Assembly (NCBI GenBank): GCA_937975855.1 | Contig: CALJTT010000004.1 | Coordinates: 5,583 to 69,582 of the forward strand | Source: Minisyncoccota bacterium | GTDB lineage: Bacteria > Patescibacteriota > Minisyncoccia > Phycocordibacterales > UBA918 | Length of the DNA stretch: 64,000 nt | Direction: 5' to 3' | Part shown: in pieces, positions 16,966-35,158 of the stretch | How positions within the stretch are numbered: the first letter of the stretch is position 1 | Layout: every line of letters begins with the position of its first letter | Translations under genes and position numbers: made by a program | Notes under the pieces: generated by a model | Told to the model about the DNA's origin: nothing | The model's input: only the letters and a program-made list of their open reading frames with translations | Databases searched by the model: none

Positions 16966-18507
16966 CTATGCGCCAATCTTATTAACCCAACCAAACGTCG
17001 ATTCAAAGTTCTCGATAATCAAGTCGATGATGTTCTTTTCTTGGATCGGAGTGAACAGTACGAACTTTTCACTCTGAACTTGGTTACTCGCTTCGTCAAA
17101 ACAATTTAGCCAGAAAGTGTATACAGTTGCTGGAGCGAAGTCGATTATTACCTCGACATGTGTAGTGTTGTATTCGACCAACTCTTTCTCGATTTCGAAT
17201 TGCTCAGACGCACCAGAGGCTCCTTCTTCATACGTCATGATACAGCTAGCCGGTTCGTCAGTGACCCATTCAACAATCGTTTGAATACGCGATTCGCTAC
17301 CAGGGAACAAGGTCGAATCGTTAGTTACGTTAGTGATGATTGGTGGCTGTACGTCACGAACTGTAATGAACTGAATCGGCTGACTACGCACGCGGTCTCC
17401 GCCTGAGTTCTCGACGTTTACAAAAGCGACGTATCGGGTACCGAGCGTCAGGTCGGCAAGTCGCATTTGGTGAGTGGTAGCAAGGGTTGGCCGCCCAACA
17501 GAGTTCTGTGCCCCGGTGGTTTGGTCCTGGAAATCAATTAGGGCTTTGGTAGGAACGTTTGTGTCCCAAGCTAGAGTAGCGGCGTTTTCTTCAACTTTAA
17601 CTACACGAAGATTGCGGATTTCCGGTGCAGTGGCTTTGGTTTGAAAATCGTACACTCGACTTTCGCCAGTAATACCAAATTCGTCAGTTGAAAGTACCTT
17701 GAAACTATACTGGACAAAGGGATTTAGTCCGATGAGGCGGATTTCGTGGTCAGTAGTTTGCCCCTGTGTAGACGACTGGGAAAACTCAAAGTTCGTACCA
17801 TCAAACTGTGCTGTCGGTGAAAATAGTACTTCTGAACTGGCAGGCCGATCTGTTATCCATTTTACTAACGCAGTGTTGGTCTCAGGAATAACCGTCGGAG
17901 GACCAACAATAGTCAGATCCTCGGTGATACCCTTAATAGCCTTGACCGTTTCGTTGACAATTTCTTGCAAAACCTGAGGATTGGTAATTTCTTTGATTTC
18001 TTCGATGATTTCTTCAGATTTGATTTGTTCGTTGAATTTACCTGGCCCAATACCTGAACCGCTGCCGTCAGCCTCACCTGACTTTGGCGCTCCTGTTGTG
18101 TCGATGCGGTAGTCAGCAGAAATACCCTGGTTACCAAACTCGTCCGACGACACAACGCGGAAAAAGTAAGTACGACCAGGCTCCAAATCGTCTAAAGTTA
18201 TGGAGTGTTGCGTCTTATCAGCGACGGGAACACGGCTGATCCCATAGTTTGGCTGCAACCCGTAGTTAATTGCAGAGTCAGCTTCTTCGTCAGTTTCCCA
18301 AGTTATTTGCAGAGTTGATTCATCCACATTAATGATCTGCAGATTGGAGATTTCTGGCGGATCACGATCGTCTGATTGTGCAATAGCAAGACTTGGCATA
18401 CTCACTTGCAAAAGCAGCAAGAAAATTAAGAAGGTGTCTATAAAGAACCGGGATCTCATTGTTCTAATCCTAGCATGTGCTTGGTTGTGATTTAATAAGT
18501 AATTCAT
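16966..18507 (-). CDS. Secreted protein with ~4 fibronectin type III-like domains
   Basis: Signal (FLIFLLLLQVSMPSLAIAQS). Repeated FN3-like modules (PPEISNLQIINVDESTLQITWETD..., APEIRNLRVVKVEENAATLAWDT..., PPIITNVTNDS...IVEWVTDEP). Confidence 0.55.
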   Translation of the reverse strand: MNYLLNHNQAHARIRTMRSRFFIDTFLIFLLLLQVSMPSLAIAQSDDRDPPEISNLQIINVDESTLQITWETDEEADSAINYGLQPNYGISRVPVADKTQHSITLDDLEPGRTYFFRVVSSDEFGNQGISADYRIDTTGAPKSGEADGSGSGIGPGKFNEQIKSEEIIEEIKEITNPQVLQEIVNETVKAIKGITEDLTIVGPPTVIPETNTALVKWITDRPASSEVLFSPTAQFDGTNFEFSQSSTQGQTTDHEIRLIGLNPFVQYSFKVLSTDEFGITGESRVYDFQTKATAPEIRNLRVVKVEENAATLAWDTNVPTKALIDFQDQTTGAQNSVGRPTLATTHQMRLADLTLGTRYVAFVNVENSGGDRVRSQPIQFITVRDVQPPIITNVTNDSTLFPGSESRIQTIVEWVTDEPASCIMTYEEGASGASEQFEIEKELVEYNTTHVEVIIDFAPATVYTFWLNCFDEASNQVQSEKFVLFTPIQEKNIIDLIIENFESTFGWVNKIGA

Positions 18508-18510: not shown

Positions 18511-21500
18511 TTAATCGCCGATTGCGGTAAATGAGTTGATGCCCGTATGGGGCCTGCTGGCTGAGCCGAACGGTACTTCAATACCCCAATATAAATTGTC
18601 AGTTACGCCAGGAGTTGTCGTTGTTGGCTTACTGAGATCAAGTTCAAGATTGGCTGGAGTTACAGTAAGTGCGCTACATCCCACACATGCTGCGTAGTTA
18701 AATGTACTAGTGGCGTACCTCTGCTGGGCTGCTGCGATCACAGAACTGGCGCCATCAGACATGTCAGTTCCTGCTATTTGTACGTCGATGGACTCGTTTC
18801 CGATGTTATGTAGGGTTACTGCCGGGTTGAAAGCCCCAGTGTTATTGGTCACCTCGACAACACCGTAGGCAATGCTGTTTTGTATATCTAGCGCTCGCAA
18901 CGTCAGCAACTCAACGCCGGTTGATGTCACAAAGTCTACCGCGCCAGTGGTGTCCTCGACCTCCATAAACGCAAACCATTCTTCTGCGCCATCTAGGTCA
19001 GTTGGATCGGCGTGGTAGACAATCGGCGCACTACACTGCAACGAACAAGCGTTAGTTGTACAGTTGGTGTAAGTACAGCTGCTGGTGGCCACATAACAAT
19101 TATTGTCATCTGGCGAACAAGCGGCTCCCACAGAAGTTTTGTAGAAAGTTGTTGTGGCGCTCACGATGTCCGCAATCCCGTTTAGATCAGTAACAGTTGT
19201 AGAGGCGATGATTTCTGTTGTAGTCCCGGCAGATAGTGAAATATCCAGTCCGTCGTTAAGAGAGAGTGAGCCGAGAACCGGATCGAAGCGCAATGTCAGT
19301 TCTGCAACCTCTAGATAAGTATCAAGTTCTGTACCTTGGTCGGTAACTCTGAAGCATAAATTCTGGTCGTCAACATTAATAGTTGGTGTGATTACATACT
19401 CGATTTCGGTGTACTCGAACATAGCGATATCCAAATCCCCAGTCTCATTTGACGGATCTTCCCTAAGCTCGCCAGCGGTGAATTGACCAGACACGTCGTT
19501 TAGCAGGTCGACAGTGGTTTCTCCATTAGTAACTTCGGTTGAAGTTTGCATACAGACTGGCGACAAGCCACAACTACTTTGAACAGGAACGTCCAAATAA
19601 CCAGCGGTCGACACAGCTTCACAACTTGGCGCTGACCCCTTTGGCACATATTCAAGTGCGAAGCGCTGAGCGGTGATCGCTCCACCGCTGTTTTCGACGG
19701 CCAATCGTAGCCTGGCAGTGTCGCCAGCCTCAAAGGTAGCGGCGGTATTTTGTTCAGCAGCCCATGTTGCTCCCCCGTCTGACTGCTCTGCACCAAAGCG
19801 AACGTTTGGCTTGCTAGTCATTGTCGGTCGTGAACTAAAGCTGTCCCAACCTCCGTTATGGAACCAGAATGTAAATCCATACCCACCAGTTGTGTAAGTA
19901 GAGTCCGAGGCTGAAAATGAAGTCACTTGTGTGCCGGCGTCGTTATACAATCGAAGGTCGAATGTGTCGTTCGTCCGCCAGTCAACTTCCACCTCGTACC
20001 AACCTGTTGTGTACGTAACAGTAGAAGAGCCAATGATGGTTCCTGACGCATCGTTCTCGACCGCGTCACGCACCAATGTGATACGGTCTGTTCCAAATTG
20101 CTCGATACACACAGCATAATTTTCGTTGGTGGATCCAGGAGACTGCACACCAAACAAGACACAGGTTTCGTCACTAGTACCTGCGCTGGTGTCGACATAC
20201 TGCTGGTAGCGGATTGTCTCACCTTGACTGACACTCTGGTCAAAGCGGTACATACCACCCAAAGTTGCCCGACTACTCTCATTGCCTGCGTTCCCAAGTC
20301 CGTACGTACCATCAAATGCGAAAGAAGCATCTGTAGCAAACAAAGCAGTTTGGCCAGTGTATTCTGCAATATCGTTGTCTTCAAAATCGTCAGCCGCGAC
20401 AAAAACTTGCTCGAGGTCGCTAGAGGACGTGGCAGACGGATTGTTGTAGTACATGTACAAAACGGTGTCAGACTCCGCTGGCATTGTTGGAACTTGAACC
20501 CATACTTCTACAATCGTGCTATCGGTTGAAGATCCGATCCAGTATGGAACCGTCGTGGTTCCGGTGTTGTCGGTGAAGCGCAAGTCGTCAAAGTCAGAGC
20601 GCATATCAGAATCGTAAGGAACTGTTACCTGAACAGCTACATCGGTATAGGTTGCCGCGTCAGCGTTGGTTAGGCGAACCGGCTGACGAGCGGCCCAATC
20701 TGTGTTCATCCATTCAATATCTGGTACCTGGGCGTTACCATCGTCGTTACGCCAACGGAAATCCGTCTGCTGAGTAATCAGACAAGAACTGTCGCCCCAC
20801 CGAACGGATCCACAATCTGTGGCGCCGTCGATATCGTACACTTCACCATCGAGATTTCCGACATGACTGGCAAATGTCCAAACATTACCCGTAACACCCG
20901 ACAGAGTAATGTTGTTACCCGTAATAGACGCCGACGTGGCGAACCGCGAGCCCGTGATAATCAATGACGCGTTGGCGTTAACTGTAGACGAAGACAAAGT
21001 CATCAGCGACCCGCCATCGACAGCCAGCTCGAAGTCACCGTAAGACAGCGAAGAAATAGTTGGCACTCCAGACAACTGCCAGCCGGCGGCATCAGTATTA
21101 CGCACCGAGTAATATAAGGCATTGAGTGCACCTGAGCTTACTGCAAATGAGTAAGTTCCAGATCCTTGATTGGTAATGTTTGTTTCGTTGCCTGCCTCAC
21201 CGACAATCTGTAACGATCCGCCGTCGACAGTTGCACTACTGTTGTCAGCCAACCGCACAGTCACGACACGCTCGCTGCCCGATAGGTCAGTACCATCAAA
21301 GTCAGTGGCGTAGCTCCAATATTCAGTTGTTGTAGAAATATGATAATCACCGTAAATATTCAAGTCTCCGTCAGCGCCAGCGTGGTCTTGGGAATACCAC
21401 GATGATGAACTTGGCACACTGACAGTTGTCGCGCTGCTGTTCCAGCTGGAGATGTCCGTATTTTCTCCCAAAACGAGTGTGTCATAAGCTTCGGTCGGGA

Positions 21501-24500
21501 TGGTCTTGTCGTTTGTTTCGTACTCGTTTGAACCGTCAAGTACTAATGTTGTGCTTGTCCAGGTTGTAGCTGCTCCACCGACGTCGTTGCTGAACACGCC
21601 ACCAACATACAGCACGCTGCCTGGAACCACTGTAAACGAACCAGCGTTACTCAAACTAAAGTTGTTAGTTGTGGTCGCGCTATCAGTCAAAGTCCAGCCA
21701 CCAGTACCAGCAATTACAACATTATAAAGGTCGTTAGCGCCAGGATCGATAAACTCGCCAGCGTCATTGGAATTAAATAATAGTGTGCCGGACGCGTGAC
21801 TGTACGTCCCGCCCGACACATCAAACGATCCGCCGATTGCCAACGTGCCGGTACCAACCGTAAATGTGCCACCGGTCAAAGTTAGGGAATCTAACAAACT
21901 AGCTGACATGTCAATCAGAGTGTAGTCACCGGCTGCAGCGGCGATCGTTAGACTGTTTAGGTCATTCCCAGAAAGCGTTACAAGGTTACCTCCGGTCGTA
22001 CTTGTTAACACAACCTCGCCGCCGGCGTGTGCAATTGTGCCATCGACCACAAAATCACCAGCCACAGTCAGCGTACCTGTAGGCAGCGTAACTGTTCCAT
22101 CGACAACTATAAACGAAGCTGTTGCTGTGGCTGTCGTGTCAGACATCGTCCAGGTCCCAGGACCCGAGAACAACACTTCGTTAGCGTCAGACCCACCAAA
22201 AGTTACGGTTTTACCGGCGACGGCCGAGTCAAAAAGTAAAGTTCCGCTGTTAGCGTCAAAGGCTCCGCCACTGTTTACAAACGACCCGCTGACAGTTGTC
22301 GTAGAGCTTGGCAGAGTCACAGTACCGTCAGTGATCAAGAAATTGTTATTGATGTCACCGTCAAGCATTGTCCAGTCACCACTGCCAGCGAATGCCAAAT
22401 TGTAGAAACCACTGTCGTTAGTGTCTACAGTCCGTCCCGCAGATGACGACGTAAAGGTTGTGCTAGAAGTTTGTGCATCAAAAGTTGCATCGGTTTCAGA
22501 AATAAGACTACCACCCAGGCTGTATACCTCGGCTGCCCCGCCGTCAAAGGTAGAGCCAGAGAGCAGTTTAAGAGTACCGTCGTAGTCCAGAGCACTGCCG
22601 CCGGTTACGGTCATGTCTCCTTGTGGTGCAAATGTTTTGTCTGTCCAGACTATCAATCCAAAGCCACTATCAACCGTCAACGTGTCTGGAGCAGAGTCAA
22701 CCGCTGTAAACGGAATAGCGGCGTCGTCTGAAGAGTCCCACACTGACATATCAGCAATCGTTAACGGGTCAGTTGCTTCGTGGCGCACAATTACGCGGTT
22801 TTGGTAAATATCGAAGTTGCTTATGTTCGAAACCGGGTCGGCTGTGACTGTAGCCCCTTCTTCGCCGGTAGCTGGCAGGAGATACGCAATGATTGAGTCC
22901 CCGGGTGAATATGTCACACCTGTCACGCTGTAAACACCACTACCGTCACAGGTAGAGCTATAAGTCGTCAAGCCAGCGACGACAACATTCACCGCTGTAG
23001 TTGCGCCATCACACACAGACGCGCCGGCGGTGGTTACACCTTCATCAGAGTACACCGTACCGGAAATAGTAATGTTTGCTGCCGAGTCGTCCCACGAAAC
23101 GTAACCTGGGTCGCCGTCAGGGTCTACGTCAAATCCTTCTCCAGCGATATCGCCGTAGTGGTTTGTGAAGCGCCATGAACTGACACTCGTGCCGGTCGCT
23201 GTTGCGCCAAAGCCACTAGCTGCGCCGTCGAGATACAGCTGATTAAGCGTAAACGCTTTGGCCGGATTGGCAGTAATAGCTGTTCCACCCACTGTCACCG
23301 CGCTACCTCCAGTTTGTGACACTCCGATAGAACCATGCGACAAAGAGCCGATCGACGCCGAGCCAGTGATAACTAAACCATCAATGTTCAAATCGCTTAA
23401 TGTGTAGTAGTCAAAAGTACTAGACGCCGTCCCGCCGATCGTCAATGCGTACGTGCCAGAACCTTGATTTTCTACAGTACTTGATGCACTTGCAGATCCT
23501 AGTACAGACAGCTGTCCGCCGGTGATGGTCACGCTACCGTTGTCAGCTATGTAAACCGAGGCTATGCGCTCACTGCCAGCTAGGCTGGTTCCGTCAAAGT
23601 CAGTAGCGTAGCTCCAGTGATCGTTAGCTGCTGTCTGGTTATACGATCCCCAGATGTACAGGTCGCCATCTACATTAGAGTGATCCTGAGAATACAACGA
23701 GGCTGTTGTGTCGACAGTATAACTAAGAGCGTCACTATTCCACATCCTGACCTGAGTTGTGCCGTCCACCTCAAGTGTCGCGTACGAGTCAGCGGTGGTA
23801 GATGCGTTAATGGCGTAATTGTTGCCTCCGTATAGTCGCAATGTGGAACCTGTCCACGTTGTGGGTGCTCCACCAATGTCGTTAAAGAACGTTCCGCCAA
23901 CAGACAGCGTTTGCCCGGAATTCAAAGTAAATGTATTTGCGTCGGTTAACAACCAGCTGTCTGTGGCTGTGGCATGTTCAGTTACTGTTACGTCGCCCGT
24001 AGCGTCGATAACAACATTTGCGAAATCACTGCTACCAGCAGCAACAGAGATCGCGCCCGACCCATCAAAAGTCAAAGTTCCTGTGCCGGCGGTTAGTACG
24101 CCATTATTGTCATAACTGCCAGCAATAGTGGTCGTGGCTAAGTCACTAAGTACCCAAACGCCATTTGATTCTATTGTCACGTCGCCATTTATGTCGAACT
24201 GCGGATCGTTGGTAGTTTGATCAAAAGTCGTGGCGGCCACACCTGCAATCACCAAATCGTTGTCGACAATAATACCTGGTGTACCCGTAGTGTATGTTGC
24301 CGGCGCGCCACTGGCTGCCAACGTCAGATTGTAATATTCGGTAGCGAGAACTTCCGAGCCGGGCCCGCTGTAGACAACTGTGCTGGTATCCGCCAAGAAC
24401 GTCCCCTCCTCCACAAAGACTACACCCGTGCCAGCCAAATCCCAGATAGTCGACCCGGCGTCAAGGAAGTGAGCCATCTCGATAGTCAAGACCCCACCGA

Positions 24501-27500: not shown

Positions 27501-30500
27501 TTTCAACGGTCAGATTACCATTAACGTCAAGCAAGGGTGACACTGTCCAAATCGCACTACTGGTAGTCGAACCAAAGGTCAGGCTGCCAAACGTAGTCGT
27601 TGCGCCAGTGTTGTCAATCACCTCATTTCCGACCAAGGCGCTAAATAAAACTGTCGAGTCGCTTAGGCTTGTTGTTGCACTATTTTCCCATGAACCAGAA
27701 ACTTCCATCGAATGCGTTTCCAGCGTGAAGGAGCCGTTATTTTCAAAGTCATGAGTGATAATGTCACCCTCTGGCTGATAAAGCGCGCCAGACTTTATAT
27801 AAAGTTCAGCATCAGTACAACCGGCGTCAGCACAAGTATTTAATACACTACCAGAGAGGGACAAGAACACGTCTTCATCGTTAGTAAAGGTGTAGCTGCC
27901 AATATCAAGGTTGGTAAGCGGTGTCGAAGTTGCGTCGTTAGAGCCAATACTGACATGCCTTTCATATAACTCGAATCCGTCTATGTCGCCAATTCCGTCA
28001 TATAAAGTAACACCAACAGCCTCAGCTGCGTCTGCAGCCCCAGAGACAAATACTGTAACGATGTCACCGGGGAAAACTGTGACATTGTCGATTGACCAGA
28101 CTCCCGCGGAAATAGTCCCGACCTTACCAGCCTGCAGCACACCATTAACAGCCACGACGACGTTACCGCTAGTCACGTTGGTGGATTGATCGTAACCTTG
28201 GGCAGTTCCTGAAATCGTCAATCCTGCCGCCCAGGTTACAGCCCAGTCGTACATTTCTGGACAGTTACCCGAACCATCACAAGCCAGCTCTGCAAATGGA
28301 CGAACTACGTTGTATGTAAATCGGTCTAGACCCGACAAGTCAATTGGGCTAGTGGTGGTTCCAAGCTCGTTAACCGGCAGGTCGCTTGGTGGGATCATCT
28401 GCCAGCTATTGGTAGCGGACAAATATTGTACAAAGTAGCGTATTTCACTTGTGCCGGGCTGGAAATCGTTCCAGGCAAATTCTTGCCAGTACGGACCGGT
28501 TCCGTCTTCAAAATAAACTGGCGGACTGACAATCGTGCTACCTGTGCTACCTGGCTGACGAGCACCTATATCGTACGGACGACCGTACGGGCTAGTGTCT
28601 ACAGACACATTTGTAACCAGATCAACAGTCGTGCTCCAGCTAGATCCATTCCAAGTAGAGAAGCGCAACGTGTCGTTAGCGTTGTCCAAAAATGCACCAA
28701 GAATGAGACCTTCGCCCATACGCTCTAGCTGCATAGTGGCGGTATTAATGATTGTGTTCACTTGAGTCTCGGCACTCCAGGCTGTATTGTTGTACGTTTG
28801 GTAGTTAGTGGCCGTAGCATCGCTGTACGTCAACATGATGTGATTGTCGCGGCCGGAAGTTGTCTCGAAAGAACAGTCAAAGCTGGGCTCAGTCTTTACA
28901 CTGGCTGTTTCTAGATTATCGTCGAGCGTCCAGGCTGCTCCATCCCACCTTACGACCGCAATATCACTAGTATCATCAACCAGACAAAGGGCCATGTCGT
29001 CAGAACCTTCGTCTCGTACGAGCGACCCCCACTCAAAGTCGTTACCAATAGTTTGATTCGCCGCAGCGCTCCAAGCGGTGCCGTTCCAACTACTCCAGGT
29101 GAAGCGGGCTGGATTACCATCAGAAGCAACTATCACAGCCTGGCCACCACTCTCTTCGTATTCCAAAGCCATACCGGCATACGCCGATTCAGTAATTCGA
29201 CCAAGCGTAGTTGGGTTACCCCAAGCAGACCCATCCCACACCTGAGCTTCAAATGGGTTCCCGTCTGACCCACGCACCATAATCACCATTTCGTCAGATG
29301 TTGGATTGGCGGCCAGTTCTATCCAGGTACAGTTGGTTGTCTCGGCTACATTTATAGTCCCACCACTGGTCCAGGTCGTGCCGTCCCACACATAATAAGA
29401 TGGATCAGCGTCACCATCACAATATACGGCAATTGCATCACCCGATAATGTTTCGTACTCGACATCAAACCCACGGGCACTGATGTCGCTAACACTGGTT
29501 GTGAGTTCTTGTTGGCTGCGCCATTCTCCAATTGTGTAAGTTTGAGCATTGATGTCAGCGTCAGTTCCAAGTGTTACAGCAATATACTCTTCCCGTGTAG
29601 GAGCAGCTTTCACTACAGACCATTTTAGTGGTGCTGAGATGTCTAACAATGTCCCCTCCTCAGACAAAACTGTACCTGTCCACAACCGATAACGCGGTTC
29701 GGTTTCAATTCCTTCACCATAGACAATCATCGCCTCGGTAGCGGTGGTCGCCACGGTCAAATACCCAGCTTCAGTCGAAATAGTACCGGAAAGAATATCA
29801 GTATCGAATTGATCTTTTGTGGTTTGGAACCAGGTCGAGACGTCAGTTCCGGGAATAACGGTCAGGCTGCGCTCAACCGTCCAAAATGAATAGACATTGT
29901 CACCAGTTGGATCTTTGGCTCGGACGCGCCACCAATATGTGGTCGTACCAGTCAAAGCATCAGCTGGTTGGATCTCAAAGCGAATGCGCTCGTTAGCGTT
30001 GAAAGGGCTGGTGTCAGCGCCAGTTACGATATTGGTAAACCCACCGTCGACATCTGATGTGCGGGTAGTTGATGCTGCAAAATCACGGTCTGTTGACCAG
30101 GAAATTTGGTAAGTCAAATCTTCGCTTTGCGGATCGTCTGCCACAAACTCAAAGGTTGGAGTTGTCGTTCCTACCTGCTCGTTGGCAAACAAACTGAAAA
30201 TAGTTGGTGTCTCTACTTTGTAACCCCAATTAATAGTCCAGTCTTGCAAAGTTGGAGAACCGCCACTGTTAGTGAAAGTGGCGACCACTCGCAAGGTGTC
30301 GTACTCGCCGGTATCAACATCCAGTAAGGGCACGGGCGAGGTGCCGAACCCGCTACTATTTCCAGGCAGTGCAGAATCAGGAACTAGGGACCAGGCGCTG
30401 CCGTCGTAATATTCGATTTGATAAGAAATGCTGCCCGTGGTTTCAACGTCGGTAAAAACAAAGTCCTCCCAAACTGTTCCGTTAACGCCGTCAAAGAACA

Positions 30501-33500
30501 CAATTGATTCACTAGTTAAAGTTCCAGTTGTTGATCCAGTTATCAATTGAACAGAATCGCCAGACACCTCTACACCATCAAGAGCACCAGCTTGGAACTG
30601 CTCGTTTTCTGTCTGGAACCAAGCAGTGGCCAGTAATGTCGCATCTACAGTAAAGTTATAGATCTCTGACCAGTTACCCCAACTATTTGAACCTTCTGGG
30701 TCGCGAGCTTGAATGCGCCAGTAGTACGTAGTGCCGTCTGTAAAAGAGACTACTGGGGTGAACTTCATCTGCTCGCCATGCCTGAATGGAGCTTTGTCAG
30801 CCACAAGCACCTGGTTCTCGAACTGTGAAGAGTTTGAAATGGTATTTTTGGCAACCAGCGGAGAACCAAACGCAGGATCATCGTCGATCTCAATAGAGTA
30901 ATGTACGTTGTCACCCTCGTCATCAAACGCAGTGAAGTAGAACTCTTGGGTAGTGCTGGCGGTCTTTTCACTTATAAATGGCTTATCCAGAGTTAAAGTG
31001 TCTGGCGAAAAATTCGTTAACAGTTGCGGGTAGTGATTATAGGAAAAGAAAACTGTTCCGTCAGCTTGAACCAGCCGAAAACAATACTGCGTACCGGCCG
31101 AGGCACCATTGTGCTCTAATACAAAGTCCCATTCCCCTACGTCGCTAACTGCTATTTCGTTTGGCGTTGACGAAGCAAGCGCGTCCTCTTCATAGGTCGC
31201 CACCACCGTAGAAGAAGACAATAACGTCGATGGTAAAGTTGCGCCGTCAGCAATACCGCCAACGTTGTATCCACGCCAAATCGCTGCAGAGGCCACATCT
31301 CCCACATCAGTCCAGGTTGCAGCAAAACTACAAACGCTAGCTTCAGCAAATTGTAATTTAAAGTCAGACCCAATAGTAGAAGTGGCGTTTGTGACCTCGG
31401 TGTTTAAACGCAAGCGAACCACATCGCCATCTGCCACAGGTGTGCTGGTGGCAGTGATCGGCTCGCGCTCTATTAGATCTACTCCCCCGCCATCATTTGG
31501 CCAAGGTTCAGTCGGAGTCAAACTGGCTGCATTTGCATACCATCGTGAAGATAACTGCGTGTAAACCGGATCAACTCCCTGACGTTTTCCGAATCGCACC
31601 GTTACATACGGCGGCAGATGGTCGTCAGTTGAGAAGTCGGTAGCGTCAACCTGGTGAGTATGTGCACCAGCCGAACCAGAACTGCCCGAACGAGCATTGA
31701 TCGTCGCACTTGGGCCCGACGATGTTATTCCCAGCGCGTCAGCATGTGTATGACTTTGAACGTCACCAGTTGCGCCATATGTAGCAGCCGCTTTGATAAA
31801 CCGATTTGAAAACGCGTCGCCGTCATCAGAAACAGACACCCAGCCTCCATCGACATCTTCATCCCACATGGCAATCAGTCCGTTTGGTGGTGCGTCGTCA
31901 GCACTTAGTTCAGCCAGTAGAATCTCGATGAACGGAGGCTGATTATCAACACTGTCACTGTTCGAGTTAACGGTGTGATTGTGGGTGTCAGTTGCCCCTG
32001 ACTGTTGTGACCCACCACCTCGAATTCTGGTTCCTGCGCCGGCTGCGTTAGCTGTAGTCCCTGTAATACCATGCGTGTGAGTGTTGGATCCAGCAGTGGT
32101 ACCTGGAGTATCTTCGCCGTAGACGTACTTGCCGTCTTGTGCCGCGTAGCGATTCCAGCCAGCAGGCAGGCTAGAGGAAGCCGTGTCGAACATAGCAATT
32201 GCGCCGGCTGGAATAGTTGTTGGTTCACCAGCAGCCACATCGTAGCGAATAACCCGCAGCTGTCTATATTCGGGAAGGTTTGATTCTGAACTGATGGTTG
32301 GTGTGTACGTATGAGTATGACTGACAGGCGCAACCGCTCCAGAACCACTTTCTGTAGACGCTGCTGCAGAACCCAAAACCGAACCAACGGCAGTGTGCGT
32401 GTGAGTAGCAGCGCCACCAGTGTTGTTGTAAGTGGAGCTGGCGACAATAAAGCGCTGGTAAAAAGGATCAGCCGGGGCACAAGATACACACACCCAGTCG
32501 GTCGGGATACTGGCGCCAGAGTCCCAGAAAAGCAACATCTTACCAACTGCATCTGATGCGATTTGCCATTGCCGATGCTCTACAAACGAGATGTTAGAAG
32601 AACCTGTGGTACTGGCAGTGCGAACAACATCACCCTGCAACTCTGCTGCTCCCAGCACAAACAGGAATGGAGATATGTCAGGGGCGTCAAACTGATAAGA
32701 GACCTCAATCGATTCCCCTGCAGACACAGACACGTCCCAGGTCAAAACCTGATCGTCATTGTCGATAGTAATTGAAGCGTCCGTATCGAATATTTCAAAA
32801 TCTTTGGGGACTCGTTCGGTTAATGTTCCATCAAAACCCGCGCTACTGTCGACAGTTAGAATCATCGGGTACGCAGCTGGTGGATAAATACGAGTAGGCC
32901 CTTCTCGCGAAATAGACACATCTTGCGTTTCAACCACCCTAAAGGTGTCGCTGGTGAAACTAAGAACCTCACCATCGTCGCTTAGTCGTTCTAGATAAAG
33001 TTTATATTCGCCGGGTATACCAGCAGTTGAACTAGCCAGGAAATCTGGCACGTCGATTACGTTATTGCCATCACACAAGCCAGATTCGACTACCGGCAGA
33101 CGCTCGATCACACCCGCAGGATCAGTTACATACAAGTCGATGTTCGCTGAACAGATGGTGTGTCCAGTAGGGGTAATTGCACCAACAGAGAAATTGACAG
33201 ACTCGCCGGTAGCGTATTCTGTCTTGTTAGAGTTGATTGTCAAAATTCCCCACTGAAAACTGAAAGTGTCGATTGTCTGCTTGCCTCCTTCGTTCAGGGT
33301 CAGTTCGATTTCGTATTCACCAGGACGTAAATTTACGAGTTGCGCATCAGGAATTTTTATATCGAACTTACCATCTGGTGTCACCGACACCTCTGGTTGT
33401 AGTGGCATCGGTCCATAAGACTTGTGACTAACCAGAACATTCTCCACTTCTACCATGTCTGACCTGAGTATTGATCTGAACCCTCGCACTAGCGCGTTGC

Positions 33501-35061
33501 GCTGTGAAATGTATTGCAAGGTGAACTCGGGAGCCTCACTTCTAGTAAAGTTTAATTTTTTACTGATCATTGACGCTGCTTCGGGAATTTTCAGGTGCTG
33601 CAAATTTTCTGGTGAACCACGCCGTTCGATATCTTCATTTGTGACAACCTTGGTTTGCAGCTCTATCCAAGCCGCGTCCAAGAACATACCATCTAGCAGA
33701 TCAACATCCCCGCGATATACAACCGAAATAGAGATATCTTCCAGATCGGTGAGCGAAGTTACGTCCGGTAGTGCAAACAAGAAATAACCACCATTGAGAG
33801 CGTTTGAAATTTCTTCCTCCAAAAGAACCACACCAACAGTTTGTTGTGTGGTTGAAGCGCCATAGAGAACTTCGATATAAGGAGCTTCACCGTCTGCTGC
33901 AGGAGTTTTGAGTTTGGCCGCCATAGAAACGCGCAACTGGGCGTCGGTGATGAACTGGCCAGGTTGAAGTTTAGGTAGATCAAAATCAGTCACAACCAAT
34001 TCGCTCTCAACAGGGTCAATCCGCTCGTCAGATTCACCTGTATTTATGTTGGTTGTTTGCGAATCTAATGATTCAGTCGGTAGCACTTCGGTAGTTGTGG
34101 CTGCTTGAGATGAAGTTGTTGATCCTAACGGTTCTTCAGGAACAAAATCCACCACATTATCAACCAGTTCTGAATCAACAGCATTCGCGACTGAGACCTC
34201 TTCTTCAGGAACAACATCGGTTGAAGTGGCAGAAGTGACATCATTAGCTGCAACTTCTTCAGGTAAAGATTCATTGTCTGTCTCTATCACCGCAATCTCT
34301 GGCGTTGAAGTTTCCGAATCCTGCACTTCCTCTTGTTCAAGGGTTTCTTCGTCAACTACCAGATCGTCTGTTGTTGATGTTGCAATATCAACCAACAAAG
34401 GATATTTGCCAACCGATGGTCTAATTGTTTGCGACAAGTACCATGGTGTCTGATAAAGCGCCTGGGAAGTTGTGGCGGAAAAATCTTCGATCTCAGTCTT
34501 ATCCTCCTGAACTTGTTCGTCTGTAACTTCAACAGTCTGTACTTCTTCAGGAATCGCGGCAGTGTTTGAAACAGTTTCTTGTAGCTGCTCTTGTAGGCCA
34601 GAATCAGAGGACGAAGAGACGACGGGCTCTATCTCTAAATCGTTTACAACTGTCGAAGGTTCGACAGTATCTCGCTTTTTAGCTGTTGGAATGACAATTC
34701 GTTCTTGAGCTATAAACGATGAATTTTTTGCAGTGAAGTTTTGATAAAGACTGTCATTATCAAGATCGCGCACCAGCGCACGCTTGGAAGAAGCCCATGA
34801 ATCTGCCTCGGTTTCTGTTGGGTAAACCTCAACCGCAACATCAGAACCAAAGCTGATCGGTTCGCGCTTTGAGTACGCAGCTTCGGGTTCAAGAATAGAT
34901 ATTAAAAATACAACAACCAGAGTAAGAGCCAGCGATTTTGCAAAATAGTGACCAACACTAAAAGGCGAAATTAAACCATTTCGCGCTGTATTAACAGTAT
35001 TTATTTGTACTTCGTTTCTTTGGTTGTCGAGTTTATTCGTACCCACAAAGATAATGGCCAA
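18511..35061 (-). CDS. Giant (5516 aa) membrane-anchored surface protein/adhesin. Layout: N-terminal TM, acidic S/T/E/V-rich stalk, two FN3-like modules, six-bladed W-D/N-G-x-x-W beta-propeller, three tandem ~770-800-aa super-repeats of beta-helix-like units, DUF2341/LamG-like domain, Cys-containing C-terminal region ending in a Y-W-G-I tag.
   Basis: Uninterrupted 16,551-nt ORF. TM LALTLVVVFLISIL. FN3-like TTYYWRIQARDPEG (~30691-30740) and TTYWWRVRAKDP (~29911-29950). Blades VWDGTTW (29371-29420) to TWNGSSW (~28631-28665). Repeated ...SLYSQDH..DGDLYI.G.Y...WSYATDFDGT at ~26090, ~23690, ~21400. RWRNDDGN at 20711-20760 followed by D-F-D-D-L-R-F...Y-W...VWVQVP...YMYYNN (DUF2341 signature, ~20330-20700). 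Confidence 0.8.
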   Translation of the reverse strand: MAIIFVGTNKLDNQRNEVQINTVNTARNGLISPFSVGHYFAKSLALTLVVVFLISILEPEAAYSKREPISFGSDVAVEVYPTETEADSWASSKRALVRDLDNDSLYQNFTAKNSSFIAQERIVIPTAKKRDTVEPSTVVNDLEIEPVVSSSSDSGLQEQLQETVSNTAAIPEEVQTVEVTDEQVQEDKTEIEDFSATTSQALYQTPWYLSQTIRPSVGKYPLLVDIATSTTDDLVVDEETLEQEEVQDSETSTPEIAVIETDNESLPEEVAANDVTSATSTDVVPEEEVSVANAVDSELVDNVVDFVPEEPLGSTTSSQAATTTEVLPTESLDSQTTNINTGESDERIDPVESELVVTDFDLPKLQPGQFITDAQLRVSMAAKLKTPAADGEAPYIEVLYGASTTQQTVGVVLLEEEISNALNGGYFLFALPDVTSLTDLEDISISVVYRGDVDLLDGMFLDAAWIELQTKVVTNEDIERRGSPENLQHLKIPEAASMISKKLNFTRSEAPEFTLQYISQRNALVRGFRSILRSDMVEVENVLVSHKSYGPMPLQPEVSVTPDGKFDIKIPDAQLVNLRPGEYEIELTLNEGGKQTIDTFSFQWGILTINSNKTEYATGESVNFSVGAITPTGHTICSANIDLYVTDPAGVIERLPVVESGLCDGNNVIDVPDFLASSTAGIPGEYKLYLERLSDDGEVLSFTSDTFRVVETQDVSISREGPTRIYPPAAYPMILTVDSSAGFDGTLTERVPKDFEIFDTDASITIDNDDQVLTWDVSVSAGESIEVSYQFDAPDISPFLFVLGAAELQGDVVRTASTTGSSNISFVEHRQWQIASDAVGKMLLFWDSGASIPTDWVCVSCAPADPFYQRFIVASSTYNNTGGAATHTHTAVGSVLGSAAASTESGSGAVAPVSHTHTYTPTISSESNLPEYRQLRVIRYDVAAGEPTTIPAGAIAMFDTASSSLPAGWNRYAAQDGKYVYGEDTPGTTAGSNTHTHGITGTTANAAGAGTRIRGGGSQQSGATDTHNHTVNSNSDSVDNQPPFIEILLAELSADDAPPNGLIAMWDEDVDGGWVSVSDDGDAFSNRFIKAAATYGATGDVQSHTHADALGITSSGPSATINARSGSSGSAGAHTHQVDATDFSTDDHLPPYVTVRFGKRQGVDPVYTQLSSRWYANAASLTPTEPWPNDGGGVDLIEREPITATSTPVADGDVVRLRLNTEVTNATSTIGSDFKLQFAEASVCSFAATWTDVGDVASAAIWRGYNVGGIADGATLPSTLLSSSTVVATYEEDALASSTPNEIAVSDVGEWDFVLEHNGASAGTQYCFRLVQADGTVFFSYNHYPQLLTNFSPDTLTLDKPFISEKTASTTQEFYFTAFDDEGDNVHYSIEIDDDPAFGSPLVAKNTISNSSQFENQVLVADKAPFRHGEQMKFTPVVSFTDGTTYYWRIQARDPEGSNSWGNWSEIYNFTVDATLLATAWFQTENEQFQAGALDGVEVSGDSVQLITGSTTGTLTSESIVFFDGVNGTVWEDFVFTDVETTGSISYQIEYYDGSAWSLVPDSALPGNSSGFGTSPVPLLDVDTGEYDTLRVVATFTNSGGSPTLQDWTINWGYKVETPTIFSLFANEQVGTTTPTFEFVADDPQSEDLTYQISWSTDRDFAASTTRTSDVDGGFTNIVTGADTSPFNANERIRFEIQPADALTGTTTYWWRVRAKDPTGDNVYSFWTVERSLTVIPGTDVSTWFQTTKDQFDTDILSGTISTEAGYLTVATTATEAMIVYGEGIETEPRYRLWTGTVLSEEGTLLDISAPLKWSVVKAAPTREEYIAVTLGTDADINAQTYTIGEWRSQQELTTSVSDISARGFDVEYETLSGDAIAVYCDGDADPSYYVWDGTTWTSGGTINVAETTNCTWIELAANPTSDEMVIMVRGSDGNPFEAQVWDGSAWGNPTTLGRITESAYAGMALEYEESGGQAVIVASDGNPARFTWSSWNGTAWSAAANQTIGNDFEWGSLVRDEGSDDMALCLVDDTSDIAVVRWDGAAWTLDDNLETASVKTEPSFDCSFETTSGRDNHIMLTYSDATATNYQTYNNTAWSAETQVNTIINTATMQLERMGEGLILGAFLDNANDTLRFSTWNGSSWSTTVDLVTNVSVDTSPYGRPYDIGARQPGSTGSTIVSPPVYFEDGTGPYWQEFAWNDFQPGTSEIRYFVQYLSATNSWQMIPPSDLPVNELGTTTSPIDLSGLDRFTYNVVRPFAELACDGSGNCPEMYDWAVTWAAGLTISGTAQGYDQSTNVTSGNVVVAVNGVLQAGKVGTISAGVWSIDNVTVFPGDIVTVFVSGAADAAEAVGVTLYDGIGDIDGFELYERHVSIGSNDATSTPLTNLDIGSYTFTNDEDVFLSLSGSVLNTCADAGCTDAELYIKSGALYQPEGDIITHDFENNGSFTLETHSMEVSGSWENSATTSLSDSTVLFSALVGNEVIDNTGATTTFGSLTFGSTTSSAIWTVSPLLDVNGNLTVETGTLARATTSINVVGDITTGATGFWTGIGTTTLDGNSASIWSDKNVTLQNIGHVVIDGSSKIISLGSDVAAQSITIGIDDTLDASSNNYDLYVYGDWTNNNAFVARQGEVFFVATTTSHVIISAADAFYDLSFTGVGGSWSFAETEVFVNNNLTIATGTVTLPTATTTIDGSFDSTGGAFLHNNGVLYFTSDGPENITFDGAEFTNVAHNMTFEGAGTWTMTDTNATSTNDVNILQGSVLFPSGVFAIGGSLVADSGSFDGGTGTTRFYSSVAEVLTTSGSSFNNVVFDGIGSWSFSDTNALATGDLFVYGGALTLPDTFTIGGSYDNQATVSAGTSLVVFDSLDNGETIDFGADPLHDVLIASETGGWTVVSSATTTGTFTLASSSDFTMQSGESLSVAGEFHNYVGGASTTWTGSTLSLEAGAYSINNETDPGDTYGTIRVANDTDIKMWNSDAVVYDVDATGSLYSQDHGAIDGDLYIFGNYNIAGGNEYWSYATDFDGTDLAALSAQRQANVRFADGASADFDSVTFEIIGDFAASTTVANQGSGTYNVTVSGGTFDAQYHTFSNLGSTGLSLLDAVSVGVFENGSYQVDAVAGTALTLSSTTIDANPANQLYEISFSTTSAIFATNVSQTDGTPLSYWWFRSGAGNLYGESNDSDTGDPGSIRFDDSLLVITMAGTVYADAGVTPLGGPTCDGATAVVNVYVEGNPAPYTGSCDAGTGAYSISGITIVGDPALTIYLNNAAGGEQGSIITRTPTANILDADIYANRVIVRHEDLAALTINQLAVRDNSEDVDLQFVAATNTDSDTLTVLSGNELYVWASTTFTPGGEVTLAGEGAGTSYDGSLTLADNATFNAFATSTLAIGGRFTLGASSTFNAASTTVLMNASTTGKLITAGDEVTFNNLTFDGAGGGWALTADIRVLGDVLMTDGVLSGNGDIYVESGDFAGAGTVLLNGGTTTMAVANNLGGAGSWTFHNLQLGDTLSVGTTTPLFTSTTTIGGVLTIEMAHFLDAGSTIWDLAGTGVVFVEEGTFLADTSTVVYSGPGSEVLATEYYNLTLAASGAPATYTTGTPGIIVDNDLVIAGVAATTFDQTTNDPQFDINGDVTIESNGVWVLSDLATTTIAGSYDNNGVLTAGTGTLTFDGSGAISVAAGSSDFANVVIDATGDVTVTEHATATDSWLLTDANTFTLNSGQTLSVGGTFFNDIGGAPTTWTGSTLRLYGGNNYAINASTTADSYATLEVDGTTQVRMWNSDALSYTVDTTASLYSQDHSNVDGDLYIWGSYNQTAANDHWSYATDFDGTSLAGSERIASVYIADNGSVTITGGQLSVLGSASASSTVENQGSGTYALTIGGTASSTFDYYTLSDLNIDGLVITGSASIGSLSHGSIGVSQTGGSAVTVGGTAITANPAKAFTLNQLYLDGAASGFGATATGTSVSSWRFTNHYGDIAGEGFDVDPDGDPGYVSWDDSAANITISGTVYSDEGVTTAGASVCDGATTAVNVVVAGLTTYSSTCDGSGVYSVTGVTYSPGDSIIAYLLPATGEEGATVTADPVSNISNFDIYQNRVIVRHEATDPLTIADMSVWDSSDDAAIPFTAVDSAPDTLTVDSGFGLIVWTDKTFAPQGDMTVTGGSALDYDGTLKLLSGSTFDGGAAEVYSLGGSLISETDATFDAQTSSTTFTSSSAGRTVDTNDSGFYNLAFAGSGDWTMLDGDINNNFLITDGTVTLPSSTTTVSGSFVNSGGAFDANSGTLLFDSAVAGKTVTFGGSDANEVLFSGPGTWTMSDTTATATASFIVVDGTVTLPTGTLTVAGDFVVDGTIAHAGGEVVLTSTTGGNLVTLSGNDLNSLTIAAAAGDYTLIDMSASLLDSLTLTGGTFTVGTGTLAIGGSFDVSGGTYSHASGTLLFNSNDAGEFIDPGANDLYNVVIAGTGGWTLTDSATTTNNFSLSNAGSFTVVPGSVLYVGGVFSNDVGGAATTWTSTTLVLDGSNEYETNDKTIPTEAYDTLVLGENTDISSWNSSATTVSVPSSSSWYSQDHAGADGDLNIYGDYHISTTTEYWSYATDFDGTDLSGSERVVTVRLADNSSATVDGGSLQIVGEAGNETNITNQGSGTYSFAVSSGALNALYYSVRNTDAAGWQLSGVPTISSLSYGDFELAVDGGSLMTLSSSTVNANASLIITGSRFATSASITGNNITLSGVTGNVWTFASHVGNLDGEVYDIDGATDCGSVRWGDSSCLITQQTDFRWRNDDGNAQVPDIEWMNTDWAARQPVRLTNADAATYTDVAVQVTVPYDSDMRSDFDDLRFTDNTGTTTVPYWIGSSTDSTIVEVWVQVPTMPAESDTVLYMYYNNPSATSSSDLEQVFVAADDFEDNDIAEYTGQTALFATDASFAFDGTYGLGNAGNESSRATLGGMYRFDQSVSQGETIRYQQYVDTSAGTSDETCVLFGVQSPGSTNENYAVCIEQFGTDRITLVRDAVENDASGTIIGSSTVTYTTGWYEVEVDWRTNDTFDLRLYNDAGTQVTSFSASDSTYTTGGYGFTFWFHNGGWDSFSSRPTMTSKPNVRFGAEQSDGGATWAAEQNTAATFEAGDTARLRLAVENSGGAITAQRFALEYVPKGSAPSCEAVSTAGYLDVPVQSSCGLSPVCMQTSTEVTNGETTVDLLNDVSGQFTAGELREDPSNETGDLDIAMFEYTEIEYVITPTINVDDQNLCFRVTDQGTELDTYLEVAELTLRFDPVLGSLSLNDGLDISLSAGTTTEIIASTTVTDLNGIADIVSATTTFYKTSVGAACSPDDNNCYVATSSCTYTNCTTNACSLQCSAPIVYHADPTDLDGAEEWFAFMEVEDTTGAVDFVTSTGVELLTLRALDIQNSIAYGVVEVTNNTGAFNPAVTLHNIGNESIDVQIAGTDMSDGASSVIAAAQQRYATSTFNYAACVGCSALTVTPANLELDLSKPTTTTPGVTDNLYWGIEVPFGSASRPHTGINSFTAIGD
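20700..28500 (-). repeat. Three tandem in-frame super-repeats (~2.3-2.4 kb each, ~770-800 aa) inside the giant gene, each composed of shorter ~45-50-aa beta-helix-like sub-repeats
   Basis: Anchor motif (S/W)LYSQDH..(V/I)DGDL(Y/N)I.G.Y.......(Y/H)WSYATDFDGT(D/S)L recurs at ~26090, ~23690, ~21400. Flanking segments align over hundreds of residues (e.g., SGTVY(A/S)D.GVT..G..CDGAT.AVNV.V and IYANRVIVRHE(D/A)). Confidence 0.75.
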
Positions 35062-35094
35062 GCCTCATAAGATAGAGACGTGAGCCATTCTAAA

Positions 35095-35131: not shown

Positions 35132-35158
35132 TCAGTTTTGTTGATTACTAGGCCTGCT

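What the first reader, a model, noticed from the sequence alone, without database searches (positions are those of the whole stretch)
18511..35061. 16.5-kb single gene encoding a 5516-aa modular surface protein
One uninterrupted ORF occupies a quarter of the window. Its architecture suggests a cell-surface fibre or adhesin projecting a large beta-helical shaft: an N-terminal TM anchor, a ~400-aa acidic low-complexity stalk, two FN3-like modules, a six-bladed propeller, three ~2.4-kb super-repeats of beta-helix-like units, a DUF2341/LamG-like lectin-type domain and a Cys-containing C-terminal region. Giant proteins of this kind are hallmarks of reduced-genome epibiotic or symbiotic bacteria and are usually uncharacterised. 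The DUF2341 domain is classically found fused to or adjacent to MotA/TolQ/ExbB-type proteins, so finding it embedded here is unusual.
Basis: partly seen in the sequence, partly recalled or inferred. Interest (0 to 1): 0.8.

Follow-up and report, generated by a model that had tools for sequence, protein, structure and literature searches.

The report
Giant CPR cell-surface fibre protein
A real, intact 16.5-kb gene encodes a 5516-residue (about 581 kDa) exported, all-beta modular fibre protein of an ultrasmall Parcubacteria-type (CPR) bacterium; it belongs to a conserved but uncharacterised family of giant "DUF2341 domain-containing" proteins that most likely serve in attachment, so it is a good example of a known kind rather than a new one.

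Summary
The ORF is exactly as described: window 18511-35061, minus strand, 5516 codons, no stops.

It is not a pseudogene or an assembly artefact. Colinear 5.5-6.5-kaa orthologues exist. In 31 of 33 related genomes the frame stays open as far as sequence was fetched. The gene contains no DNA repeats.

Most domain calls hold:
- The only hydrophobic segment is N-terminal, but it looks like a cleavable signal peptide.
- The acidic linker is real.
- The two FN3-like modules are weakly supported.
- DUF2341 is confirmed by Pfam.

Corrections:
- The "propeller" is eight 49-residue repeats, not six, and its fold is untested.
- The shaft holds about 3.5 super-repeat units.
- DUF2341 inside giant Patescibacteria proteins is common, not unusual.

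New points:
- Residues 835-1165 are a compact three-repeat module with six conserved HxH motifs. It is absent from Pfam, matches 3047 protein clusters, and remotely resembles phage tail fibres.
- The gene heads a strictly conserved cluster: giant, FN3 protein, MacB/FtsX-type ABC transporter, then three more surface proteins.

Best reading: a surface adhesion fibre. Novelty: new member of a known kind.

The parts
18511..35061 (-). Giant gene: 5516 codons plus stop, ~581 kDa, pI ~4.05. Start is TTG (35061) or GTG (35046).
   Evidence: Colinear with 5.5-6.5-kaa orthologues.
34876..34956 (-). aa ~36-62: the only hydrophobic segment. Sec signal peptide or signal anchor, followed by EAAYS|KR.
   Evidence: Orthologues share the hydrophobic segment plus an (A/V)-x-(S/A)|K site.
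33982..34674 (-). aa ~131-360: acidic E/T/S/V-rich low-complexity linker. It is the least conserved part (about 21% identity).
32560..33981 (-). aa 361-834: conserved beta-rich region, probably several Ig/transthyretin-like domains. Fold not modelled.
   Evidence: Weak NOMO_6th and Top6b_C hits. PF01835 is recorded for three homologues (position unchecked). 37% identity to orthologues.
31567..32559 (-). aa 835-1165: three tandem ~105-aa repeats, each W..G..P.GW ... HxH ... HxH ... N.PPY. A compact module with six HxH motifs, not in Pfam, remotely like phage tail fibres.
31012..31566 (-). aa 1166-1350: beta domain 'X', copy 1. The same family as aa 5086-5259. It occurs six times in tandem in P0108.
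30610..31011 (-). aa 1351-1484: FN3/Ig-like module A.
30226..30609 (-). aa 1485-1612: domain 'Y', copy 1, contiguous.
   Evidence: 1509-1612 ~ 2171-2277
29791..30225 (-). aa 1613-1757: FN3/Ig-like module B. Ig_Rha78A_N scores 26.9 bits against a cut-off of 27.4.
28597..29772 (-). aa 1764-2155: eight ~49-aa repeats with a W-[DN]-G-x-x-W motif. Presumed beta-propeller, apparently inserted into domain Y copy 2.
   Evidence: No Pfam or PDB family matches. P0273 has a shorter insert here.
28231..28551 (-). aa 2171-2277: C-terminal part of domain 'Y', copy 2.
20770..28230 (-). aa 2278-4764: shaft of diverged super-repeats. Half unit 2278-2803; SR1 2804-3600; SR2 3601-4406; SR3 (first half only) 4407-4764. 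Right-handed beta-helix, at least in the modelled part.
20368..20595 (-). aa 4823-4898: DUF2341 (PF10102).
   Evidence: E 3e-17 and 1e-17
19816..20349 (-). aa ~4905-5082: concanavalin-A-like / LamG / CBM66-like jelly roll.
19285..19806 (-). aa ~5086-5259: beta domain 'X', copy 2.
18514..19284 (-). aa 5260-5516: Cys-rich C-terminal domain(s) with nearly invariant Cys. Homologous to the C-terminus of the neighbouring 633-aa protein and of other CPR surface proteins.
35093..35133 (-). 19-bp hairpin followed by UUUAGAAU, in the 97-nt spacer between the cohesin gene and the giant gene. Terminator-like.
   Evidence: z -6.67. The consensus scan did not flag it.
16966..18507 (-). 513-aa FN3-repeat protein with an N-terminal hydrophobic segment. 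It starts 3 nt after the giant's stop codon.
   Evidence: Syntenic in nearly all related loci at 60-72% identity, ~41% in the four most distant.
15640..16962 (-). 440-aa ABC ATPase of the MacB/LolD/FtsE type with a ~200-aa C-terminal extension.
   Evidence: 70-88% identity in most loci (48% in the three most distant)
14424..15638 (-). 404-aa MacB_PCD + FtsX permease.
   Evidence: 74-87% identity in most loci (58-65% in five)
10284..14328 (-). Three further syntenic genes: p633 (12427-14328, sharing the giant's C-terminal domain), p315 (11386-12333, signal peptide plus C-terminal TM) and a DUF4215/Big_6/dockerin protein (10284-11423).

Best explanation
The gene encodes a Sec-exported, ~581-kDa, strongly acidic, almost entirely beta-structured fibre displayed on or released from a Parcubacteria/Paceibacteria (CPR) cell. 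It most likely works as a long-reach adhesin.

Architecture from N to C:
- a signal peptide or signal anchor and a poorly conserved acidic spacer;
- Ig-like domains;
- a compact three-repeat HxH module;
- two FN3-like modules;
- an eight-repeat presumed propeller nested in a jelly-roll-like domain;
- a ~2500-residue shaft of diverged right-handed beta-helix super-repeats;
- a terminal block of DUF2341, a ConA/CBM66-like lectin domain, an Ig-like domain and a Cys-rich domain.

The shaft would act as a rigid spacer. The lectin-like domain, the propeller and the HxH module would be the candidate ligand-binding (probably glycan-binding) sites for a host or partner cell surface or matrix. The gene is co-organised with an FN3 membrane protein and a MacB/FtsX-type ABC transporter, with gaps of 1-3 nt. 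I infer these help to export, anchor or release the fibre.

Shown: the ORF, its conservation, the export signal, the beta-helix and lectin folds, DUF2341, and the synteny.
Inferred: adhesion, glycan binding, which end is distal, and the role of the ABC system.
For: - Intact ORF.
- End-to-end colinear orthologues of 5515-6510 aa at 41-51% identity.
- Uniform 37-54% identity across all folded modules, against 15-25% in the signal peptide and linker.
- The frame stays open to the edge of the fetched DNA in 31 of 33 genomes, 22 of them with at least 4079 codons.
- One N-terminal hydrophobic segment with a conserved cleavage-like site.
- No cytoplasmic enzyme domains.
- DUF2341 passes the Pfam cut-off.
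- The cluster giant, FN3, ABC, FtsX, p633, p315, dockerin protein keeps its order in about 36 species-level genomes.
- The surrounding genes encode cohesin, dockerin, sortase and other surface proteins.
- Giant DUF2341/FhaB proteins of Patescibacteria have already been proposed as adhesins (PMC11809585), and DUF2341 proteins as pilus-tip adhesin analogues in archaea (PMC4858521).
Against: - There is no experimental evidence for any member: no expression, localisation or ligand data.
- Lectin-fold similarity does not show sugar binding; binding residues were not examined.
- No recognised wall or membrane anchor other than the possibly cleaved N-terminal segment: no C-terminal LPXTG signal and no dockerin. 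Surface retention is therefore unproven.
- Beta-helices with tailspike-like matches can also be polysaccharide-degrading enzymes.
- About 60% of the protein (aa 1-834, 1166-4319) was not modelled.
Confidence: 0.6

Rival explanations
1. It is a secreted or surface-bound polysaccharide-degrading enzyme, like a tailspike depolymerase. The beta-helix super-repeats would carry lyase or hydrolase sites, and the lectin/CBM-like domain would target them to host capsule or EPS.
Against: No glycoside-hydrolase, lyase or Beta_helix Pfam/NCBIfam family matches any part of the giant. The best beta-helix match is a non-enzymatic adhesin passenger (Fap2, then Vag8). No catalytic residues were identified.
Confidence: 0.15
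2. It is a structural envelope or S-layer-like component rather than a specific adhesin. It would form part of the cell coat, held by its conserved C-terminal Cys-rich domain, which neighbouring surface proteins share.
For: The C-terminal ~290 aa are homologous to the C-terminus of the adjacent p633 (E 5e-13) and to several other CPR surface proteins. Conservation is uniform along the whole length, with no hypervariable tip. It lies in a locus full of envelope proteins.
Against: In some homologues the shared domain is internal, not terminal. A single 581-kDa fibre-like chain with a beta-helix shaft is unlike known lattice-forming S-layer proteins. Only a loose Foldseek hit to an S-layer protein was found (TM about 0.1).
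Confidence: 0.15
3. It is a contact-dependent toxin or effector delivery exoprotein of the FhaB/CdiA or RTX type.
For: It has giant size and a beta-helix. Literature on Patescibacteria giants mentions FhaB-type domains.
Against: No TPS domain, no toxin or immunity module, no RTX repeats and no T1SS or TpsB partner were found. The C-terminus is a conserved Cys-rich beta domain rather than a polymorphic toxin tip.
Confidence: 0.04
4. It is a pseudogene or assembly artefact, with collapsed or expanded repeats creating a fortuitous long frame.
For: In two related MAGs the region is broken into several ORFs, and in one metagenome it is three genes.
Against: There are 5516 codons without a stop. It is colinear with independent assemblies. 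The frame is open in 31 of 33 genomes. There is no DNA direct repeat of 30 nt or more in the gene. In one of the two broken MAGs (L003) the neighbouring FN3 gene is split and in the other (L001) the FtsX gene, which suggests indel errors there.
Confidence: 0.02

Closest known systems
Giant 'DUF2341 domain-containing proteins' of Paceibacterota/Parcubacteria (for example MEX0931679.1, 5649 aa)
   Same: Colinear over aa 56-5515 at 43% identity. Other full-length relatives of 5515-6510 aa have the same module order, and the same downstream gene cluster occurs in ~36 related genomes.
   Different: Only sequence divergence: the best C-terminal match in species-representative genomes is 61%. One relative (P0273) has a shorter insert in place of the eight-repeat region. 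One metagenomic relative has the gene split into three.
Very large (>4000 aa) FhaB/DUF2341-containing proteins of Patescibacteria, discussed as putative adhesins (PMC11809585)
   Same: Same phylum-level group, same size class, presence of DUF2341, and the same proposed role in adhesion or host interaction.
   Different: Those authors' own proteins are a different family, and they found no full-length homologues of them. The present family is well conserved, and I could not test for an FhaB (COG3210) match with the available libraries.
Autotransporter beta-helix adhesins (Fusobacterium Fap2 passenger, Bordetella Vag8)
   Different: There is no C-terminal beta-barrel translocator and no outer membrane in this lineage. 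Sequence identity is only 6-11%. Export is by an N-terminal Sec-type signal.
Trimeric phage receptor-binding fibres with HxH metal sites (T4 gp37 tip, 2xgf; tail fibres 9qgo and 9nxk)
Giant Sec-exported surface proteins of wall-bearing bacteria (for example Giant1-5 of Apilactobacillus kunkeei, PMC12863079; SiiE, PMC6272769)
   Same: Same size class, modular beta-rich extracellular architecture, and a presumed role in cell-cell or cell-surface interaction (abstracts listed).
   Different: No sequence relationship was found, and the domain sets and secretion or anchoring systems differ. I compared them by description only.
Archaeal type-IV-pilus-locus DUF2341 proteins (PMC4858521)
   Same: Large extracellular proteins carrying DUF2341 and proposed to be adhesins.
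   Different: No Pfam hit to a pilus gene among the 36 of the window's 50 minus-strand ORFs of 100 aa or more that were scanned. The partner genes here are an FN3 protein and a MacB-type ABC transporter.

Membership tests
DUF2341 (Pfam PF10102) | HMM match above the gathering score | tested here: met
   63.3 and 64.7 bits against a cut-off of 23.4, aa 4823-4898
Giant Paceibacterota 'DUF2341 domain-containing protein' orthologue group | End-to-end colinearity with full-length members | tested here: met
   P0236 83-5647 aligns to giant 56-5515 at 43% identity. P0262, P0247, P0296 and P0346 align over more than 4800 aa. Coverage is 0.97-1.0 for all folded modules except the eight-repeat region (0.86).
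Giant Paceibacterota 'DUF2341 domain-containing protein' orthologue group | Conserved downstream cluster: FN3 protein, ABC ATPase, FtsX permease, p633, p315, dockerin protein | tested here: met
   Same order in L001-L041 wherever the contig extends far enough
Right-handed parallel beta-helix (adhesin or tailspike type) | Structural superposition on solved beta-helix proteins | tested here: met
Concanavalin-A-like lectin / LamG / CBM66 | Jelly-roll fold match | tested here: met
Concanavalin-A-like lectin / LamG / CBM66 | Conserved sugar- or Ca-binding residues | not tested
Fibronectin type III (PF00041) | HMM match above the gathering score in the giant | tested here: not met
   No fn3 hit at E<=0.1. 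The best related hit is Ig_Rha78A_N at 26.9 bits against a cut-off of 27.4.
FN3/Ig-like E-set fold (superfamily level) | Recurrent weak matches of the module family to FN3-type models and structures | tested here: inconclusive
   Ig_Rha78A_N 19/19 members (best 1.9e-7), Pur_ac_phosph_N 9/19, fn3 5/19. PDB leptin receptor and gp130 FN3 domains at E 0.003-0.1. Not modelled.
Beta-propeller | Tandem blade-length repeats | tested here: met
   Eight ~49-aa units, aa 1764-2155. Also eight in P0104 and P0107.
Beta-propeller | Closed propeller fold and a stated blade number of six | tested here: not met
   The blade number of six is contradicted by the eight repeats. The fold itself was not modelled, and no Pfam or PDB sequence family matches.
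Phage tail collar / HxH tail-fibre tip | Significant sequence or structure match to solved tail fibres | tested here: inconclusive
Phage tail collar / HxH tail-fibre tip | His6 metal site formed by three HxH motifs | not testable with these tools
   11 of 12 His are at least 90% conserved, but the geometry could not be inspected.
Two-partner-secretion exoprotein (FhaB/CdiA) | N-terminal TPS domain and a TpsB partner | tested here: not met
   No such Pfam or NCBIfam hit in the giant or its neighbours
Autotransporter | C-terminal beta-barrel translocator | tested here: not met
   The C-terminus models as soluble beta-sandwich domains, and there is no autotransporter Pfam hit.
Sortase-anchored (LPXTG) surface protein | C-terminal LPXTG, hydrophobic segment and basic tail | tested here: not met
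   The only LPATG is internal, at aa 4062. The C-terminus ends ...NSFTAIGD.
Cohesin/dockerin-displayed protein | Dockerin or cohesin domain in the giant | tested here: not met
   None in the giant, although neighbouring genes have them.

The most novel reading that the evidence does not exclude
The three-repeat HxH module (aa 835-1165) is a single-chain, pseudo-threefold copy of the trimeric receptor-binding tip of phage tail fibres. Its six HxH motifs would form two His6 metal sites. It would define a large undescribed family of cellular receptor-binding domains: 3047 clusters, in proteins from ~330-aa stand-alone forms to giants over 7000 aa, seen so far in CPR, DPANN-labelled, Chloroflexota and Geobacter proteins. 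On this reading the giant fibre, together with its strictly co-conserved FN3 protein and MacB-type mechanotransmitting ABC transporter, forms an energised attachment or release apparatus specific to these episymbionts.
Probability: 0.2. Interest if true: 0.6.

Novelty: new member of a known kind. Interest (0 to 1): 0.35.

Why it matters
CPR/Patescibacteria bacteria are thought to live attached to other cells, yet how Parcubacteria-type lineages attach is essentially unknown. This gene takes up about 1.7% of a ~1-Mb genome. It is kept intact, in the same seven-gene cluster, across dozens of species, which argues for an important surface function.

The analysis offers concrete handles for experiments:
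- a confidently modelled lectin-like terminal block and a beta-helix shaft;
- an unannotated but very widespread HxH module with possible metal sites;
- a candidate partner system, the FN3 protein plus the MacB/FtsX ABC transporter.

It does not reveal a new kind of system. Colinear orthologues are already in public databases, and giant DUF2341 proteins of Patescibacteria have already been discussed as adhesins.

Tried and rejected
- **Whole-protein homology search.** I searched three segments instead.
- **Exact look-up of the neighbouring FN3 protein.** Not on record, so this genome itself is not in the collection.
- **phmmer of both halves against PDB sequences.** No hit.
- **NCBIfam on all segments.** No hit for the giant.
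- **Fucose-lectin propeller idea.** From memory, the W-D-G-x-x-W repeats looked like RSL/AAL fucose-lectin propellers. A blade profile found no such PDB match and Pfam found no family, so I dropped the idea.
- **Alignment-based locus search.** A single-protein query worked.
- **Consensus promoter/terminator scan.** It did not flag the upstream hairpin. Folding did.
- **T1SS/RTX, TPS, autotransporter, LPXTG and dockerin display.** I considered each and rejected it; see the membership tests.
Full report
**1. The observation**

The window has one ORF at 18511-35061 on the minus strand: 5516 codons and no internal stop. The first 80 codons contain no ATG. The only candidate starts are TTG at codon 1 and GTG at codon 6. 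The product is ~581 kDa with pI ~4.05. It is rich in T/S/G/A/D and poor in K and R.

A 97-nt spacer separates the gene from the upstream cohesin gene. The spacer holds a 19-bp hairpin followed by a U-rich stretch (z = -6.67). Downstream, the next three genes follow with gaps of 3, 3 and 1 nt, which looks like an operon.

**2. It is a real gene**

- Searches with three segments found many relatives in Parcubacteria-type CPR bacteria, labelled Kaiserbacteria, Nomurabacteria, Paceibacterota or Minisyncoccia.
- A profile search of 1.84 billion representatives returned full-length relatives. They are colinear with the window protein: P0236 (5649 aa, MEX0931679.1, 'DUF2341 domain-containing protein [Candidatus Paceibacterota bacterium]') aligns over aa 56-5515 at 43% identity. 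P0262, P0247, P0296, P0346, P0273 and P0266 (5515-6510 aa) align similarly.
- In a scan of species-representative genomes, 36 bacterial (Patescibacteria-type) genomes carry the C-terminal block at 43-66% identity. They include ~1-Mb complete or near-complete genomes.
- In 31 of 33 loci the frame stays open to the edge of the fetched DNA. In 22 of them that means at least 4079 codons.
- The two exceptions come from MAGs in which a neighbouring gene (FN3 in one, FtsX in the other) is also split, which suggests indel errors.
- Identity to seven full-length orthologues is uniform across all folded modules (37-54%). It is low only in the signal peptide and the acidic linker (15-25%).
- The gene has no DNA direct repeat of 30 nt or more, so collapse or expansion of the super-repeats during assembly is unlikely.

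**3. Anatomy**

*N-terminus.* The only hydrophobic stretch is aa ~36-62. Orthologues share it, followed by an (A/V)-x-(S/A)|K motif. A cleavable Sec signal peptide is therefore at least as likely as a permanent anchor. Residues 61-420 are acidic (D+E 20.6%).

*Pfam.* Only DUF2341 is recognised above threshold, at aa 4823-4898. NCBIfam recognises nothing, and PDB sequences give nothing by phmmer.

*Internal repeats (self-comparison).*
- Three ~105-aa repeats within aa 835-1165.
- A duplicated FN3-like-plus-domain unit (1351-1612 ~ 1614-1785 and 2171-2277).
- Blade-length repeats.
- ~800-aa super-repeats (2804-3600, 3601-4406, 4407-4764), preceded by a half unit (2278-2803).

*FN3-like modules.* The family hits Ig_Rha78A_N in 19/19 members, Pur_ac_phosph_N in 9/19 and fn3 in 5/19. 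Its profile weakly matches cytokine-receptor FN3 domains in the PDB. 'FN3-like' is reasonable, but membership of PF00041 is not met.

*'Propeller'.* It consists of eight, not six, ~49-aa units (aa 1764-2155), and orthologues also have eight. No Pfam or PDB family matches it, and I could not model it. By sequence it sits between the first strands and the remainder of a second copy of the domain at aa 1485-1612, so it looks like a nested insertion. P0273 has a shorter insert there.

**4. The HxH module**

Residues 835-1165 are three repeats, each with the pattern W..G..P.GW ... HxH ... HxH ... N.PPY. These are the only six HxH motifs in the protein, and 11 of the 12 His are at least 90% conserved.

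- The module models as one compact body (pLDDT 85.7, pTM 0.81) with a strand pattern repeated three times.
- It is not in Pfam.
- A profile finds 3047 clusters at 50% identity (511 at E<=1e-30), in proteins of 325-7246 aa, including stand-alone forms.
- Beyond Patescibacteria, sources label members as Woesearchaeota, Chloroflexota and Geobacter.

The similarity to phage tail fibres is remote:
- 9qgo_A 'Tail fiber protein', E 0.0015.
- PHROG 'tail protein' at E 3.4e-5 and 'tail fiber protein' at E 7e-4.
- No tblastn hit in phage genomes.

In trimeric fibres, HxH motifs from three chains bind iron (PMC11705849). Three repeats in one chain could do the same. This is an inference I could not test.

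**5. Context**

The order giant, FN3 protein (513 aa), ABC ATPase (440 aa), MacB_PCD/FtsX permease (404 aa), p633, p315, DUF4215/Big_6/dockerin protein is conserved in essentially all related loci. The transport genes are far better conserved (mostly 70-88%) than the giant.

The ABC system belongs to the MacB/Lol/FtsEX group, but it falls below every equivalog cut-off. p633 shares the giant's C-terminal domain (E 5e-13).

The rest of the window is dominated by envelope genes: two cohesin proteins, three dockerin proteins, a sortase, a 2010-aa GSDH/PKD/CBM protein, an M23 peptidase, a glycosyltransferase and an ECF-type sigma factor.

**6. A variant organisation**

In one metagenomic relative (L002) the same coding sequence is three genes of 2874, 1959 and 1282 aa. 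The breaks fall at equivalent positions in two super-repeats. At each break there is a nearly identical cassette: a stop codon, a 20-nt spacer, ATG, a new signal peptide and a DUF3494/Ice_binding beta-helix domain of ~390 aa.

Four protein clusters carry Ice_binding plus DUF2341. The single ORF is the common state.

**7. Interpretation**

The best reading is an exported fibre more than 100 nm long (rough estimate from domain count and beta-helix rise) that mediates attachment. It has a rigid beta-helix spacer and several candidate ligand-binding modules.

The fold assignments and the conservation are shown. Adhesion, glycan binding, polarity and the role of the ABC system are inferred.

Rivals, in order of weight:
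- a tailspike-like depolymerase;
- an envelope structural protein;
- a toxin-delivery exoprotein (no supporting domains);
- an artefact or pseudogene (refuted).

**8. Novelty**

Colinear orthologues are already deposited and annotated as DUF2341 proteins. A 2024 paper counted 149 Patescibacteria proteins over 4000 aa, 82 of them with FhaB and/or DUF2341 domains, and proposed adhesion (PMC11809585). DUF2341 proteins were proposed as pilus-tip adhesin analogues in archaea (PMC4858521).

The finding is therefore a well-preserved new member of a known, uncharacterised kind.

The HxH module and the conserved ABC-linked cluster are the parts most worth following up.

Noticed in passing
L002 1-13849 (JGI 3300053785, Ga0535658_0000208): In this relative the giant is three genes. 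Each break lies at the same position of a super-repeat, and each carries a nearly identical inserted cassette: stop codon, 20-nt spacer 'cgctataatactcacaagat', ATG, signal peptide and a ~390-aa Ice_binding/DUF3494 domain. This is either gene fission by cassette insertion or its reverse, fusion.
   Followed up: partly
window 35159-36697, 5999-7768 (cohesin); 37283-39238, 10284-11423, 4549-5307 (dockerin): A CPR genome region with two membrane-anchored cohesin proteins and three dockerin proteins, arranged in two paralogous sets that flank the giant operon (coh512~coh589 37%, dock379~dock651 38%, o375b~o376a 47% identity). This suggests cellulosome-style surface display.
   Followed up: partly
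window 46695-52727 (-): A second large gene (2010 aa) combining GSDH (a PQQ-type sugar dehydrogenase propeller), PKD, CBM_4_9 and Big_7 domains. Next to it are a GT2 glycosyltransferase, a sortase and an LTD-domain protein.
   Followed up: no
window 12427-14328 (-): The 633-aa protein with no Pfam match shares its C-terminal ~310 aa, ending YWGI.VP.G...N.FTA, with the giant's Cys-rich C-terminus (E 5e-13). The same domain recurs in other CPR surface proteins. It may be an anchoring or assembly domain.
   Followed up: partly
window 31567-32559 (-) and proteins P0237, P0241, P0335: The HxH three-repeat module also exists as stand-alone ~370-420-aa secreted proteins, and sometimes twice or more in one protein. 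The family has 3047 clusters at 50% identity and no Pfam model.
   Followed up: partly
window 15640-16962 (-): The MacB/LolD/FtsE-type ABC ATPase carries a ~200-aa charged, probably helical C-terminal extension. The extension is absent from the matched NCBIfam models (which cover aa 1-~225) and is conserved in length (440 aa) in relatives.
   Followed up: no
window 35093-35133 (-): A perfect 19-bp hairpin lies between the cohesin gene and the giant gene. The consensus terminator scan missed it, probably because of its loop or tail.
   Followed up: yes
window 35046-35061 (-): The giant gene has no ATG start. Only TTG or GTG is available, and no well-spaced Shine-Dalgarno sequence was seen (GAGG lies 1 nt or 16 nt upstream).
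   Followed up: partly
L001/L010 and L003/L030 (GCA_041389005.1, GCA_041389025.1): In these two MAGs the giant is fragmented, together with the FtsX gene in one and the FN3 gene in the other. This is more consistent with assembly indel errors than with pseudogenisation.
   Followed up: partly
record titles: Many related MAGs are labelled 'uncultured Candidatus Saccharibacteria', and one contig 'Acidimicrobiales'. Yet they share this Parcubacteria-type locus at 45-61% identity, so the labels are probably automatic mislabels.
   Followed up: no
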